From contig OZ024747.1 of the NCBI GenBank assembly GCA_964016885.1, positions 60,140,001 to 60,204,000 on the forward strand: a stretch of DNA of 64,000 nt. Reading direction: 5' to 3'. Positions 4,120 to 54,207 of the stretch are shown here, piece by piece (within the stretch, counting starts at the first letter, position 1; each line of letters begins with the position of its first letter). Source of the DNA: Eledone cirrhosa (lineage: Eukaryota). The translations under genes were made by a program, and so were the position numbers. The notes beneath the pieces are model-generated. The model saw only the letters and a list, made by a program, of their open reading frames with translations. It searched no databases and was not told where the DNA came from.

Positions 4120-5225
4120 GTTCTACCATGTTCTATATCTTAAGGCAAGTTGTTCTAAACTATTTCTACCATGTACTTTATCTTAAGCTAACTAGTTCTA
4201 CCTTGTACTATATCTTAAGCTAACTAGTTCTACCTTGTACTATATCTTAAGCTAACTAGTTCTACCTTGTACTATATCTTAAGCTAACTAGTTGTACCAT
4301 GTACTATATCTTAAGGTAACTAGTTCTACCTTGTACTATATCTTAAGGTAACTAGCTCTACCATGTACTATATCTTAAGCTAACTAGTTGTACCATGTAC
4401 TATATCTTAAGGTAACTAGTTCTACCTTGTACTATATCTTAAGGTAACTAGCTCTACCATGTACTATATCTTAAGCTAACTAGTTCTACCTTGTACTATA
4501 TCTTAAGGTAACTAGCTCTACCATGTACTATATCTTAAGGTAACTAGCTCTACCATGTACTATATCTTAAGCTAACTAGTTGTACCATGTTCTATATCTT
4601 AAGGTAACTAGCTCTACCATGTACTATATCTTAAGGTAACTAGCTCTACCATGTACTATATCTTAAGGTAACTAGCTCTACCATGTACTATATCTTAAGC
4701 TAACTAGTTGTACCATGTACTATATCTTAAGGTAACTAGCTCTACCATGTACTATATCTTAAGGTAACTAGCTCTACCATGTACTATATCTTAAGGTAAC
4801 TAGTTCTACCTTGTACTATATCTTAAGGTAACTAGCTCTACCATGTACTATATCTTAAGCTAACTAGTTCTACCTTGTACTATATCTTAAGCTAACTAGT
4901 TCTACCTTGTACTATATCTTAAGGTAACTAGCTCTACCATGTACTATATCTTAAGGTAACTAGCTCTACCATGTACTATATCTTAAGCTAACTAGTTGTA
5001 CCATGTACTATATCTCAAGGTAACTAGCTCTACCATGTACTATATCTTAAGGTAACTAGCTCTACCATGTACTATATCTTAAGGTAACTAGCTCTACCAT
5101 GTACTATATCTTAAGCTAACTAGTTGTACCATGTACTATATCTTAAGGTAACTAGCTCTACCATGTACTATATCTTAAGGTAACTAGCTCTACCATGTAC
5201 TATATCTTAAGGTAACTAGTTTTAT
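4120..5225. repeat. 32-bp minisatellite (TACCATGTACTATATCTTAAGGTAACTAGCTC)n, ~34 copies
   Basis: 32-bp period (TATATCTTAA at 4561 and 4593); degenerate edges. Confidence 0.96.
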
Positions 5226-19608: not shown

Positions 19609-19812
19609 ATGAAAAGATTCAGGACCCCAACAGCTGAGCTCCATTCGTTTTGACAGCTAGATCTGACAGCCCGTTTGGATCTAGCTGTCAAAACAGCTGG
19701 AGCTGGGCCATTGGGGTCCTGATTTTTTCCTATTACCCACTCTACTACCCCAAGCATTGAGTACTCTGGTGCATTATGCTCCACCTGGTATCTTACCACA
19801 CCCTCTTTGTTT
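19609..19812 (+). mobile_element. (TA)n-anchored hairpin element, probable Penelope-like remnant
   Basis: Imperfect fold-back around GACAGCTAGATC..GATCTAGCTGTC plus a unique tail ending at (TA)n. Confidence 0.72.
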
Positions 19813-19860: not shown

Positions 19861-19862
<2 letters not shown>

Positions 19863-20063
19863 CAAAGGAAATGTGGTAAGGAACCAGGTGGACCATAACG
19901 CACCAAAGTACTCAATACTTAGGGTAGTAGAGTGGGTAATAGGAACGAGTAGGGCCCCGACGGCTGAGCTCAAGCTGTTTCGACGGCTAATTCTGGACTA
20001 AAATCTTAGTCCAGAATTAGCCGTCGAAACGGCTTGAGCACAGCCATCAGGGTCCTACTCGTT

Positions 20064-20068
<5 letters not shown>
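19861..20068 (-). mobile_element. (TA)n-anchored hairpin element, probable Penelope-like remnant
   Basis: Inverted repeat 19939-20068 plus ~78-bp unique tail; close sister at 39591-39780. Confidence 0.75.
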
Positions 20069-20127
<59 letters not shown>

Positions 20128-21670
20128 TAAAATCTTGAGTGTAGCACCAAGCGGTTGGGGTTTTACATATCTCTAAACCCATGCTACATCTCCTCATGTA
20201 TTGAGTACTCCTATGATTAGTGGTCTCCCCGGTCTCACCACTGCAAACTCTCTCTCTTTATATATCTGTTAGAACACGAAAAGTGTGAAACAACAGAATG
20301 TTCACTTTTCGTGTTCTAACATATATGCCTAGCTTCTTTAAAAATTTTTCGGGGATAGCCGTGGTGGTGGTGATCGTATGTCATTGGCTAATTTTCAACC
20401 AATCAGAGTACCTCTCTCTATATCTCTTCCACTGTTACTTACGCCTGTTTCTCTCTATCTGTTCCGTCTCTATATATATCTCTTACTCTTTCGCTTTGCA
20501 CTCCTCCCCTTCAATACCATCTCTCCCCCTCTCTATATATTTGTTACTCTATCGCTGCACGCTCCTCTCCTTCAATATATCAATTACACACGCTTTACAC
20601 TCCTTTATCCCCAGCGCCCCTATATATACACCCCCCCCCCTCCCGCATCTATATTTTAATGTACCGTTGCACCGTGAATATATGTGTCTATATATATATA
20701 CATATATATTGTATATACACATTCATGTATGTGTATACACAATCATGTATGTATATACACTGGTTTTATGTGTGTATTGTAAATTTGTACTGTTAAAACA
20801 CGAAACTAACATTCGATTGACACTTTGATTACCTGTACAGGCAATAGTTATTAGAATGCTGTTGAAGTGTGTATATATTTTGGGGGGACATCCTGTATAT
20901 ACACACATTATATATAATACAATAAACAGATAAATACACACATATATATATGAGCTTATTTAATTATAAATATTGTGAATTTTTAACTCAGTTCAATTAT
21001 ATATATAAATGGCTTCTACAGGACTAGAACTGTTTCATTCGAAAGAAATCATCATAATATTGAGAGGGGGGACTAGATAAAATATTTCAAATCAAATGTG
21101 TATAAGTTATAAGTTAAAATGTATAAATAGAGACGATAGTGGAGGTATATCTGTTTAGTGGAACAGTAGACGATAGAATTAAATACAGACGAGAATCTCC
21201 CTTTAATGAAACAGCAGACGATAGAATTAAGGCAATTTAAATTTTAAGCATTTGCATTTTTGCCTTTCATCGTTACGGGGTCGATAAAATAAAGTACCAG
21301 TAATACACTGTCACTAGACGACTTTCAAATTGAATTGTTGGTTCCATTTCTTTAGTATTTTCAATTGTAGTTATCTACTTAAAAAGCGTTACACGGTTAG
21401 AGACATAATTGGTAAGTTATATCTTCCCTATTAAACCATTGCATTATTTCGCCTACAATAGAACAAAAATGAAATGTTCTTTAAAGAAACAGGAATATAA
21501 CTTTATAAAAAAAAAAGTTGCATCCGCTTCTTTTATCATTGATAATTTTTTCGTTTTAATATTAATTGTTTTTTGTAGTTGTTTATATTAAAAATCTTAC
21601 TGTAATATTTACTTAAACGAAGGCAGACATCTAAACTTATAGATTAATCTTGAGCGAAGGACTAGATAAA

Positions 21671-21779
<109 letters not shown>

Positions 21780-23002
21780 GAAGAATGATAACATTTCAAG
21801 CAAAGAGTTTAATTAGGTAATGACTTACAAATTTGTTTCAGTATATAGACAAAGCCTGAAGCGCTAATTATAATAATTAGTTAATAATATTACAAAATAT
21901 ATTAATATTATATTAAATATATACTGAAACCAATCAGTTTAGCAGAAAGTTTCCAGACAAGAAACACGCATATTTTGCTATCCTCAAACACGTTTACACA
22001 TGGCATGAAATATAACTAATCCGAGATGGCTAGGTTTCATCTTCTAACTGGATATACGAAATCCATTATGTCTTGACAACAACATGAGGTAACATTATGT
22101 TATTCACAGACACACTTTGTACACTGTTCCATATCAGAATGTATTTCCTTCGTCACATTCACAAACAGTATTGAAAATATGTTCTTCGGCAAATAAAAAT
22201 GTTTTGTTCATAATATTTCAACTAGCGATTGCTCTACTCCACGCACGACCACCATAAATTAATGACCAGCTCAACACAAGTATTGGTAGAGCGTCAGACA
22301 CCATGCTTTGCAGTATTGTTATGGTCCTTTGCATTCTAAGTTCAAATCCTGCCGAGGTTAACTTCGACTTTCATACTTACTAATTCGATAAAATAAAGTA
22401 CCAGTAATGGACTGCCGTAATGGATTTGTGCCGAAAAATAGAAACACTATTAATGTGCAATAAGAGCAAAATATAACGACATTGCTCAATTATTTTATCT
22501 AATGTTGTAATAACACAAGGAAATGTTGTTTGTGTATTTTTTTTTATATTTGCTCATAGGCTTTTACAATTTCGCTCAGCCAACAACTATTAAAAAGTGA
22601 GTTGCTTAAAATAACAATTTAATCACAAATTGTTGCTATCTTTTAATACACTCCAACAAGTCGTCAAATTATGTACAATAAAAACAAATCTTATTAATTT
22701 GCTCAGGGAATATAAAGAAAATGTATATACACTGATAATTGCAATTGTATGTAAATATTTTGTTTTTGTATTGTATATTTTATGTTTTCTATTATGTATA
22801 ATATATTGATTTAATATTGATTGTTTTTTGTAGTTGTTTATATTAAAAGTCTGAAAATATTTTTATACATCTTACACTAATATTTATAAGATAATTTATA
22901 ATAACAATTACATAATCTAATTACATTACAACGATAATTTATTATTAATATATATCCTGTTTAACTAGAGTTATTACAAGCGTTACCTTAAAAAAATATT
23001 AA

Positions 23003-31214: not shown

Positions 31215-31408
31215 ATATAAATGGCTTCTACAGGACTAGAACTGTTTCTTCATTCAAAAGAAATCATCAAGAAATGATGATTTCTTGTGAATGAATCGGT
31301 TCTAGTCCTGGAGAAGCCATTTCTATATTAAACTCAATGTTTGCATTCTATAAATGTATTGAGTACTTTACTAACTGAGTCCCTCCATTTAAACCTAGGA
31401 TTCACACT
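31215..31408 (+). mobile_element. (TA)n-anchored hairpin element, probable Penelope-like remnant
   Basis: AAATGGCTTCTACAGGACTAGAAC ... GTTCTAGTCCTGGAGAAGCCATTT fold-back containing TGATGA..GAAAC; single-arm copy at ~21005-21054. Confidence 0.7.
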
Positions 31409-39590: not shown

Positions 39591-39592
<2 letters not shown>

Positions 39593-39780
39593 CGAAGGAA
39601 ATGTGGTAAGGAACCAGGTGGACCATAACGCACCAAAGTACTCAATACTTGAGGTAGTAGAGTGGGTAATAGGAACCAGTAAGACCCCGACAGCTGAGCT
39701 CAAGCCGTTTCGACGGCTAATTCTGGAATTAGCCGTCGAAACGGCTTGAGCTCAGCTGTCGGGGTCTTACTGGTTCCTAT
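39591..39780 (-). mobile_element. (TA)n-anchored element with 55-bp-arm perfect palindrome, probable Penelope-like remnant
   Basis: 39669-39723 is the reverse complement of 39726-39780; unique 78-bp tail; (TA)n on both sides. Confidence 0.78.
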
Positions 39781-44404: not shown

Positions 44405-46120
44405 ATTGTAAAGTGTTAATTCTGGTGCCATGATGAAATACACCCAGTACACTCTATAAAGTGGAGGCATTGTTGCCATAATTAAATGTATACCATACAC
44501 TCTATAAAATGTTGGTGCTAGTGTTACAATAAAATGCACCTAGTACACTCTGTAAAGTGCTGGTGTTACAATAAAATGTACCTAGAACACTCTATAAAGT
44601 GGTGGTATTGTTGCCATAATTAAATGTATACCATACACTCTATAAAATGTTGGTGCTAGTGTTACAATAAAATGCACCTAGTACACTCTGTAAAGTGCTG
44701 GTGTTACAATAAAATGTACCTAGAACACTCTATAAAGTGGTGGTATTGTTGCCATAATTAAATGTATACCATACACTCTATAAAGTGTTATTGCTAGTGT
44801 CACAATAAAATGCATCTAGTACACTCTGTAAAGTGGTGGTGTTACAATAAAATGTACCTAGAACACTCTATAAAGTGGTGGTATTGTTGCCATAATTAAA
44901 TGTATACCATACACTCTATAAAATGTTGGTGCTAGTGTTACAATAAAATGCACCTAGTACACTCTGTAAAGTGGTGGTGTTACAATAAAATGTACCTAGA
45001 ACACTCTATAAAGTGGTGGTATTGTTGCCATAATTAAATGTATACCATACACTCTATAAAGTGTTATTGCTAGTGTCACAATAAAATGCACCTAGTACAC
45101 TCTGTAAAGTGCTGGTGTTACAATAAAATGTACCTAGAACACTCTATAAAGTGGTGGTATTGTTGCCATAATTAAATGTATACCATACACTCTATAAAAT
45201 GTTGGTGCTGGTGTTACAATAAAATGCACCTAGTACACTCTGTAAAGTGGTGGTGTTACAATAAAATGTACCTAGAACACTCTATAAAGTGGTGGTATTG
45301 TTGCCATAATTAAATGTATACCATACACTCTATAAAATGTTGGTGCTGGTGTTACAATAAAATGCACCTAGTACACTCTGTAAAGTGGTGGTGTTACAAT
45401 AAAATGTACCTAGAACACTCTATAAAGTGGTGGTATTGTTGCCATAATTAAATGTATACCATACACTCTATAAAATGTTGGTGCTAGTGTTACAATAAAA
45501 TGCACCTAGTACACTCTGTAAAGTGCTGGTGTTACAATAAAATGTACCTAGAACACTCTATAAAGTGGTGGTATTGTTGCCATAATTAAATGTATACCAT
45601 ACACTCTATAAAATGTTGGTGCTAGTGTTACAATAAAATGCACCTAGTACACTCTGTAAAGTGCTGGTGTTACAATAAAATGTACCTAGAACACTCTATA
45701 AAGTGGTGGTATTGTTGCCATAATTAAATGTATACCATACACTCTATAAAATGTTGGTGCTAGTGTTACAATAAAATGCACCTAGTACACTCTGTAAAGT
45801 GCTGGTGTTACAATAAAATGTACCTAGAACACTCTATAAAGTGGTGGTATTGTTGCCATAATTAAATGTATACCATACACTCTATAAAATGTTGGTGCTG
45901 GTGTTACAATAAAATGCACCTAGTACACTCTGTAAAATGCTGGTGTTACAATAAAATGTACCTAGAACACTCTATAAAGTGGTGGTATTGTTGCCATAAT
46001 TAAATGTATACCATACACTCTATAAAGTGTTGGTGCCGGTGTTACAATAAAATGCACCTAGTACACTCTGTAAAGTGCTGGTGTTACAATAAAATACACC
46101 CAGTACATGCTGTAAAGTAG
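44405..46120. repeat. 138-bp higher-order minisatellite (48+48+42 bp subunits), ~12 copies
   Basis: CCTAGAACAC at 44581 and 44719; each subunit begins ACACTCT(A/G)TAAA. Confidence 0.95.
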
Positions 46121-52683: not shown

Positions 52684-53756
52684 CAATATATAACAGTTTT
52701 ACAAATAAGCTTTGACGTACCCTATTAAAATGCAACCATTGTTTTTGGAAGTCATCCGGATAGTGAATTGTTTATATAACTTTAATAAGTCATAGTGTTA
52801 AGGACAATTAGAAAAAGACAGAGAGAAAGAAAAAGACGGAGAGAAAGAAAAAAACGTGGAGAAATATCGGAGAGAGAGAGAGATGCATGGAGAAAAAAAG
52901 AAAGAGATAAGTAAAGACAGTAGGAAAGGAAGAAAGAAGAAAAAAGGAAGAAATAAGAAAAACAGAGGAAAGCAACAGAGAGATATTAAGTCAACAGACA
53001 GATAGAAAAACTCAAGAGAGAGAAATGTTATATATAGAGAGAGAGGGAGATTATGAAAACTTAACGTCATGTCATGTTAAGTTGAGTTAACAATTCATAT
53101 GAAATGAAATGAATAATATAAATATTAATATTCATGAATGGGACATAGATATATAATATGAGAAATTAAACATTGTTTAATAATGACTATATGTTTAGTT
53201 TAAACCTTGAGATCAATATACAAAAATTTGGGTTTAATCTCCAAAATGTACACGTTGCTAGAGAAAGACACACAAATATTTATATATATATATATATATA
53301 TACACGCACGTCCTGAAAATAGAAATTATATTTACTCAAGTCAACAATATAGACATATAAAGCGGAGACGATTTCTCTTAATCACTGCTATACATTCGTT
53401 GTGTTATAAAAAGTTCACAGTATATATACACATAAATATATACGATTAACATTCATGACTTCGTATATATGATTACCATTCATGCATTTAACATTTCTGC
53501 AATCCAAACTGCGTGGTTATGCAACATAACTTTTACCCACACATATACATACACACACATATATACATATACACCTATATATGTATAAATATATATGTAT
53601 ATATAAATATATATGTATATATATATATATAAGAACCGTAGAGCAAATATTTATTAAAATAACAGAAGTTTCAGAAGATCCCGTTAAGGGTGAAAGCAGC
53701 GATTCTTTGCTTAAACTTTAATCTGTTATATATATATATATATAAATATATATATA

Positions 53757-54207
<451 letters not shown>

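What the first reader, a model, noticed from the sequence alone, without database searches (positions are those of the whole stretch)
39591..39780. Recurring (TA)n-tail-palindrome-(TA)n elements whose symmetry axis appears to be hammerhead stem II
Seen: a perfect 55-bp-arm palindrome (39669-39780) plus a one-sided tail. The same architecture occurs at 19861-20068, 19609-19812, 53757-54092, 31215-31408 and 21775-21930, in at least four dissimilar families. Reading outward from the axis gives GAAA, a self-complementary stem III and an NUH site (GAAACGGCTTGAGCTCAGCTGTC at 39738-39760; GAAACCGGTA at 54010; GAAACAAATTTGTA), while CTGANGA is replaced by the mirror arm. Established: PLE pseudo-LTRs contain minimal hammerheads with palindromic stem III and form inverted partial repeats. 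Inference: cDNA folds back and self-primes at stem II, so the ribozyme structure fixes the inversion point and yields tiny hairpin insertions. I am not aware of this rule being described. Best candidate for a novel system in the window.
Basis: partly seen in the sequence, partly recalled or inferred. Interest (0 to 1): 0.75.

Follow-up and report, generated by a model that had tools for sequence, protein, structure and literature searches.

The report
Penelope hairpins end at transcript start
These palindromes are very abundant back-to-back stubs of Penelope-type jumping genes inserted in TA repeats, and in four families their turning point sits at one fixed spot that is likely where the element's RNA begins, not at the ribozyme stem that was first proposed.

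Summary
The palindromes are real. The 39591-39780 element is an exact head-to-head double copy of the 3' end of a young Hydra-clade Penelope-like retroelement (717-aa RT plus GIY-YIG ORF, 3.5-kb tandem units, at least 21,537 short hairpins). Breakpoints are sharply non-random, but the stem-II rule fails. The hot spot lies about 18, 62, 25 and 155 nt upstream of the hammerhead GAAA in families A, B, C and G, and only in A does it fall in helix II. B keeps the core box in both arms of 18 of 18 hairpins, C in 13 of 20. In A, B and C the spot is about 30 nt after a TATA-like box; G has a CCAAT box and an initiator-like site but no TATA. Fold-back is disfavoured: the tailed arm is shorter as often as longer (22 to 22). 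Best reading: both nicked strands prime on one RNA at the two tail start sites, run off its 5' end, and are joined by microhomology. No RNA data confirm the start. This scan reached the same reading before on other DNA; my paper searches did not find it in print.

The parts
39591..39668 (-). Family A tail (about 80 nt, between the two inferred RT start sites), present on one arm only; carries the TATTGAGTAC motif
   Evidence: (135-nt left arm plus tail is an exact substring of full-length unit L247)
39669..39727 (-). Family A left arm: 3' end of the PLE read on the minus strand, reaching 16 nt upstream of GAAA; 2-nt microhomology with the right arm
39726..39780 (+). Family A right arm, tail-less, starting 12 nt upstream of GAAA; GAAA at 39738, stem III, predicted cleavage after 39760, stem I 3' strand; 5' half of the hammerhead absent
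19861..20068 (.). Second family A hairpin (arms reach 21 and 20 nt upstream of GAAA), tail on the left
19609..19812 (.). Diverged family A-related hairpin, tail on the right; no long parent examined
53757..54092 (.). Family B hairpin with a complete minimal hammerhead (TTGAAAA core, 4-bp helix II) in both arms; axis about 45 nt upstream of the core
31215..31408 (.). Family C hairpin; (C)TGATGA box nearly intact in both arms, axis upstream of helix II; tail on the right
21775..21934 (.). Family D hairpin, an old single insertion carried as passenger in a dispersed composite repeat; right arm rearranged in this copy; not informative for the rule

Best explanation
The hairpins are two 5'-truncated copies of the end of a Penelope-like retroelement joined head to head in a (TA)n site, and their shared end point is likely the 5' end of the element's transcript. 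Shown: parentage (A, C, G), per-insertion junctions, a family-specific sharp end point, exactly one tailed arm, same haplotype in both arms. Inferred: an RNA polymerase II promoter in the pLTR starts the RNA at that point; the element protein nicks both strands of (TA)n and primes two cDNAs on one RNA, one at the distal and one at the proximal tail start site (as shown in vitro for another PLE, PMC11167929); both run off the RNA 5' end after 60-250 nt; the two cDNA ends are trimmed and joined by 0-3 nt microhomology. In family A the predicted start lies inside the long helix II, which is why the 5' half of the hammerhead is missing there. The stubs are likely dead ends.
For: A: 35 of 46 at-risk arms (83 tail-anchored arms examined) end 10-24 nt upstream of GAAA against 3.6 expected at background hazard; TATA-like box at -29 to -31 and, in the older subfamily, CCAAT at -90/-92 from the modal A. 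B: 17 of 30 arms end 29-40 nt after TATAAAA, none at 11-28; of 66 distinct arms joined to (TA)n within 5 nt only 1 carries two templated bases beyond the A (counted by hand). C: 10 of 24 scored arms end 29-36 nt after TATAAAT (6 copies of one composite repeat dropped, 2 of the 24 unscorable). G: 16 of 30 arms start within -3..+5 of one A, 155 nt upstream of GAAA, having passed the whole hammerhead. Exactly one tail in 55 of 56, 16 of 18 and 18 of 20 hairpins; arms within 1 mismatch in a 12-nt diagnostic block in 47 of 53 against 19% between insertions. One junction occurs on three haplotypes and the youngest haplotype has 11 junctions.
Against: No RNA 5'-end data were obtained. My prediction written before seeing family G (TATA-like box at -29..-31) failed: G has CCAAT at -52 and an initiator-like site only, and its +1 was chosen after seeing the ends. 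Family A's boxes carry one mismatch to TATAWAW, and 11-14 such sites occur per 700 nt; its upstream edge is soft (arms to +22 and a few to +37). Long read-through copies of A do not stop at the predicted start: 16 of 18 scored pass it, so they need another template (tandem read-through or circular RNA). An extra G from a cap was not shown (11 G of 66). No ORF link was shown for family B.
Confidence: 0.78

Rival explanations
1. cDNA stalls at hammerhead helix II, folds back and self-primes, so the ribozyme fixes the axis (first reader; self-priming in general form in PMC3846280).
For: In family A the hot spot is on the 3' strand of the predicted extended helix II and 0 of 56 hairpins keep the 5' core; 49 of 50 listed hairpins have 48 nt or less between the two GAAA boxes (by hand from coordinates).
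Against: B, C and G arms pass through helix II and end 62, 25 and 155 nt upstream of GAAA. Tailed arm longer 22, shorter 22, equal 11, whereas copying back on one cDNA needs the tailed arm to be the longer. 16 of 18 long copies of A pass helix II.
Confidence: 0.05
2. The fixed end is an RNA boundary other than a transcription start: a processing cut, a splice-related end, or a protein- or structure-defined template boundary of the initiation complex (telomerase-like).
For: Position-specific end shared by both arms; family G lacks a TATA box; long copies pass the site; no RNA evidence either way.
Against: The end falls 29-31 nt after a TATA-like box in three dissimilar families, with CCAAT at -80 to -92 in B, C and old A; no shared structure at the four sites was seen.
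Confidence: 0.12
3. The hairpins are self-propagating non-autonomous elements (SINE- or MITE-like) copied as units from master hairpins.
For: 19 identical 190-nt copies; family D copies share one junction.
Against: Junctions differ at nearly every site; the same junction recurs on different haplotypes and one haplotype has 11 junctions; D is a passenger with shared flanks; ends are asymmetric and continuous with long ORF-bearing inverted copies. Target-site duplications cannot be judged inside (TA)n.
Confidence: 0.05

Closest known systems
Hydra clade of Penelope-like elements (Craig et al. 2021, PMC8557442; section 11, passages and supplement rows read)
   Same: C-terminal GIY-YIG, DKT, CxCX5C linker, CxxC and CxH motifs, hammerhead in the 3' end, insertion into (TA)n.
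   Different: Unit 3.5 kb (paper: generally under 3 kb); RWR for RWK; U3-A8 core with a long helix II; the paper passages seen do not describe leader-only hairpins or a fixed truncation point.
Inverted pLTR plus one-sided tail of EN+ Penelope elements (Arkhipova et al. 2013, PMC3846280, passages read; also PMC8557442 fig. 2 legend)
   Same: Head-to-head inverted copies, palindromes at the junction, tail on one side, TATA and initiator-like motifs noted in a pLTR.
   Different: That paper reads the palindromes as self-priming; here arm lengths argue for two separate cDNAs, and the end point maps to the predicted start in several families.
PAc (Poseidon, Anolis) in vitro mechanism (Frangieh et al. 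2024, PMC11167929; main text read, parts 1-2 of 4)
   Same: Both strands nicked and extended, two internal RT start sites bounding the tail, uncleaved RNA as template, product length set by the RNA 5' end.
   Different: Different clade; the text read does not address inverted hairpins or genomic 5' end points.
Minimal PLE hammerheads (Cervera and De la Pena 2014, PMC4209133; parts 1-2 of 4 read)
   Same: Type I motif, palindromic loop III, U3-A8 core variant, opposite-strand pairs 100-700 bp apart.
   Different: Family A has a longer helix III and a helix II of about 55 nt that holds the predicted promoter.

Membership tests
Penelope-like element, EN+ | Single ORF with RT and C-terminal GIY-YIG endonuclease | tested here: met
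   Family A: 717/719-aa ORFs with YRDD and YIG in tandem units. Pfam gave 0 families. C and G long inverted copies hold matching thumb/EN fragments in the expected orientation.
Penelope-like element, EN+ | ORF link for family B | tested here: inconclusive
   2 long B regions examined; one EN fragment, not clearly part of the B insertion. B is filed by architecture only.
Penelope-like element, EN+ | Tandem or partial-tandem pLTR, inverted 5'-truncated copy, one-sided tail | tested here: met
   Tandem arrays with 3.5-kb spacing, long inverted copies, one tail in 55 of 56. Tail is about 80 nt, longer than the 30-40 bp in PMC8557442.
Hydra clade | DKT, CxCX5C linker, CxxC and CxH around the EN E and N residues, (TA)n target | tested here: met
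Hydra clade | RWK motif; length under 3 kb | tested here: inconclusive
   RWR at residue 37; unit 3.5 kb
Hydra clade | Phylogenetic placement; absence of CCHH | not tested
   No tree or alignment with published Hydra proteins was made; likeness to the supplement rows was judged by eye.
Hammerhead ribozyme type I | Core boxes with helices I, II, III | tested here: met
   Parents of A and B fold into three helices by MFE; N7 varies freely in A (TTGAGAA 37, TTGACAA 10, TTGAAAA 9, TTGATAA 7 of 66). C has the boxes but its MFE fold differs. No hammerhead family among the 150 Rfam rows shown of 282.
Hammerhead ribozyme type I | Covariation support | tested here: inconclusive
   7 sequences, 91% identical; 90% of cells paired but no excess over shuffles
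Hammerhead ribozyme type I | Self-cleavage | not testable with these tools
   Only a weak hint: 4 of 62 at-risk arms end within 1 nt of the predicted cut, P about 0.02, post hoc
DNA MITE | Fixed symmetric terminal inverted repeats and a fixed internal sequence | tested here: not met
   Asymmetric ends, variable junctions, continuity with RT-bearing copies
RNA polymerase II core promoter (CCAAT, TATA, initiator; consensus motifs recalled, not from a call) | TATA about 30 nt before the start | tested here: inconclusive
   Exact in B and C, one mismatch in A, absent in G; activity untested

The most novel reading that the evidence does not exclude
Most insertions of these Penelope-like elements are copies of only the leader of the mRNA, so their ends are a fossil map of transcription starts; and in family A the promoter is built into hammerhead helix II, so that each transcript begins as half a ribozyme that can be completed only at the element's 3' end or in trans, coupling transcription start to ribozyme control.
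Probability: 0.35. Interest if true: 0.68.

Novelty: new variant of a known kind. Interest (0 to 1): 0.48.

Why it matters
How Penelope-like elements make their inverted, one-tailed insertions is called undefined in PMC8557442 and PMC11167929. If the run-off reading holds, it links the in vitro findings (both strands primed, two internal start sites) to the commonest genomic product, explains tens of thousands of small palindromes per genome as dead-end leader copies, predicts each family's transcription start to within a few bases, and gives a direct test by CAGE. It also warns against annotating such palindromes as MITEs, microRNA hairpins or new ribozyme replicons.

Tried and rejected
Genome search for CTGANGA within 4-34 nt of the family A GAAA: 49 hits; the 30 inspected were junction filler or pieces of other families, not a hammerhead. 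Rfam: only sub-threshold microRNA-type hairpin matches in the rows shown. Pfam: no family. Cap-derived G: base before the family B start was C 27, T 22, G 11, A 6 of 66, inconclusive because (TA)n flanks often carry TG and AC. Covariation of the A hammerhead: uninformative. Family D as a test case: unusable, one insertion in a composite repeat, no parent found in 30 loci. Two-RNA model: three A-plus-G chimeras exist (pattern-selected) but none was found among the short arms of the unbiased 100-arm sample against B, C and G references. First dedupe of the 100 arms failed and was redone. Arm ends of 22 or 25 are partly over-extensions into the mirror arm, and family C ends near 5 reflect missing subfamily references; neither was used for the end-point counts.

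Full report
Observation. The element at 39591-39780 is as described: 55-bp perfect arms, a 2-nt loop, a tail on the left, (TA)n on both sides. The window lies in a 3.0-Gb genome. 19 of the 40 best-scored matches are identical over all 190 nt and all 30 loci fetched sit in (TA)n. A 16-nt anchor finds 70,853 arms (control 0) and a gapped pattern finds 21,537 hairpins with up to 110 nt between the arms (control 63). The 50 hairpins listed differ in their junction at nearly every site; 49 of 50 have 48 nt or less between the two GAAA boxes (by hand).

Parent. Long copies of the same end run into RT and GIY-YIG coding sequence and are themselves head-to-head inverted. A pattern for the sequence beyond the tail found 232 places, including tandem arrays spaced about 3.5 kb. 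The units encode 717-719 aa with DKT, CxCX5C, CxxC and CxH motifs, the marks given for the Hydra clade in PMC8557442 section 11. Both window arms are exact substrings of such a unit. The ORF starts about 110 nt after the tail, so tail and 5' UTR are contiguous in a transcript, as in PMC11167929.

Hammerhead. No canonical CTGANGA hammerhead was found for this family (49 hits, 30 inspected). The parent has a TTGANAA box 61-63 nt upstream of GAAA, flanked by stem I and a long helix II, and folds into three helices. This is the U3-A8 variant reported in PMC4209133. Position 7 varies freely; covariation was uninformative; cleavage is untested.

Breakpoints in family A. Of 83 arms taken in genome order by a tail anchor, 37 end before +10, 35 end 10-24 nt upstream of GAAA, 1 at 25-61 and 10 further up; 3.6 were expected in the peak window at background hazard. 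Some of the early ends may be later deletions. The mode is the A at +18. It is also 29-31 nt after a TATA-like box, with CCAAT at -90/-92 in the older subfamily.

Other families separate the two readings. Family B (53757; 14,051 arms) keeps a complete minimal hammerhead in both arms of 18 of 18 hairpins; 17 of 30 arms end 29-40 nt after TATAAAA, none at 11-28, 12 further upstream, 1 next to the anchor; the edge is sharp, 1 of 66 arms joined to (TA)n carrying two templated bases beyond the A (by hand). Family C (31215; 28,397 arms) has a canonical box in both arms of 13 of 20 hairpins and in one arm of 5; after dropping 6 copies of one composite repeat, 10 of 24 arms end 29-36 nt after TATAAAT, 12 are long and 2 could not be scored, several being measured against another subfamily. 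Family G (not in the window; 6,962 arms) was a prospective test: 16 of 30 arms start within -3..+5 of one A 155 nt upstream of GAAA, 8 exactly on it, and only 3 end in the 150 nt between. That refutes helix II as the stop, but my TATA prediction failed there: G shows CCAAT at -52 and an initiator-like site only. Family D (21775) is one insertion inside a dispersed composite repeat and cannot test the rule. The promoter consensus motifs are recalled knowledge.

How the two arms arise. Exactly one arm has the tail in 55 of 56 A, 16 of 18 B and 18 of 20 C hairpins (part of the A set was tail-anchored, but the GAAA-anchored pairs gave 29 of 29 by hand count). The tailed arm is longer in 22, shorter in 22 and equal in 11 A hairpins, against fold-back on one cDNA. 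Both arms carry the same subfamily block in 47 of 53, pointing to one RNA. 31 of 56 junctions overlap (mostly 1-3 nt; the largest values are alignment over-extensions), 10 are blunt, 15 have filler. One junction occurs on three haplotypes and the youngest haplotype has 11 junctions, so hairpins form anew at insertion. Rare A-plus-G chimeras exist but none appeared in the unbiased sample.

Mechanism. PMC11167929 shows for another PLE that both strands are cut and extended, that RT starts internally at two sites bounding the tail, needs RNA downstream of them, uses uncleaved RNA and gives products whose length follows the RNA 5' end. Applied here (inference): on a transcript that starts in the pLTR, the usable start sites are those near its 5' end, so both cDNAs run off after a short leader and are joined head to head. 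Against a simple version: 16 of 18 scored long read-through copies of A pass the predicted start (four belong to one array), so long copies need tandem or circular templates. No RNA run was listed and a cap-derived G was not shown.

Prior knowledge. Inverted copies, the one-sided tail, junction palindromes, a self-priming proposal and TATA plus initiator motifs in a pLTR are in PMC3846280 (passages) and PMC8557442 (passages, section 11, supplement rows). PMC2377424 (passages) places a TATA-less internal promoter in the Drosophila pLTR. The bioRxiv retrozyme paper 10.64898/2026.07.22.740005 was read in part 1 of 5 only; its supplements are closed. Eight paper searches listed nothing by title or abstract start that ties PLE 5' ends to the transcription start; the library lacks most subscription papers, and Repbase or Dfam notes were not searched. 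Earlier unreviewed notes of this scan reach the same reading on this and other genomes; I consulted them after my own tests and they are not independent support.

Verdict. Real feature; new members of a known class; the proposed stem-II fold-back rule is not supported; a transcript-start run-off rule fits four families and is directly testable. Interest 0.48.

Noticed in passing
L272 (G000:C2:356029000-356033500): Seven-unit tandem array, 299-bp unit, made of the family A tail, 5' UTR, first codons and a hammerhead with a shortened helix II: a retrozyme-like derivative of this element.
   Followed up: partly
window 20260-22400: Dispersed composite repeat, 95-99% identical at other loci, that carries the family D hairpin, a family C fragment (21003-21055) and probably the 20262-20330 hairpin as passengers; its own mode of spread is unknown.
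   Followed up: partly
window 19917, 20199, 31357, 39647, 56488 and family D loci: A TATTGAGTAC-like motif recurs in the tails of otherwise dissimilar families (A, C, D and the 20180 tail); candidate signal for RT start or protein binding.
   Followed up: no
L031, L049, L058: Head-to-head chimeras of a family A arm and a family G arm, each ending near its own hot spot, flanked by (TA)n.
   Followed up: partly
L168:7450-7810: Family C arms repeated several times in alternating orientation in one cluster.
   Followed up: no
window 53630-53730, 11219, 46564: A further repeat family with a GAAA-bearing hairpin end, also seen in several loci; not analysed.
   Followed up: no
   Followed up: no
window 44442-46095, 4158-5219, 1-1071: Minisatellite arrays with 138-, 32- and 22-bp units.
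   Followed up: no
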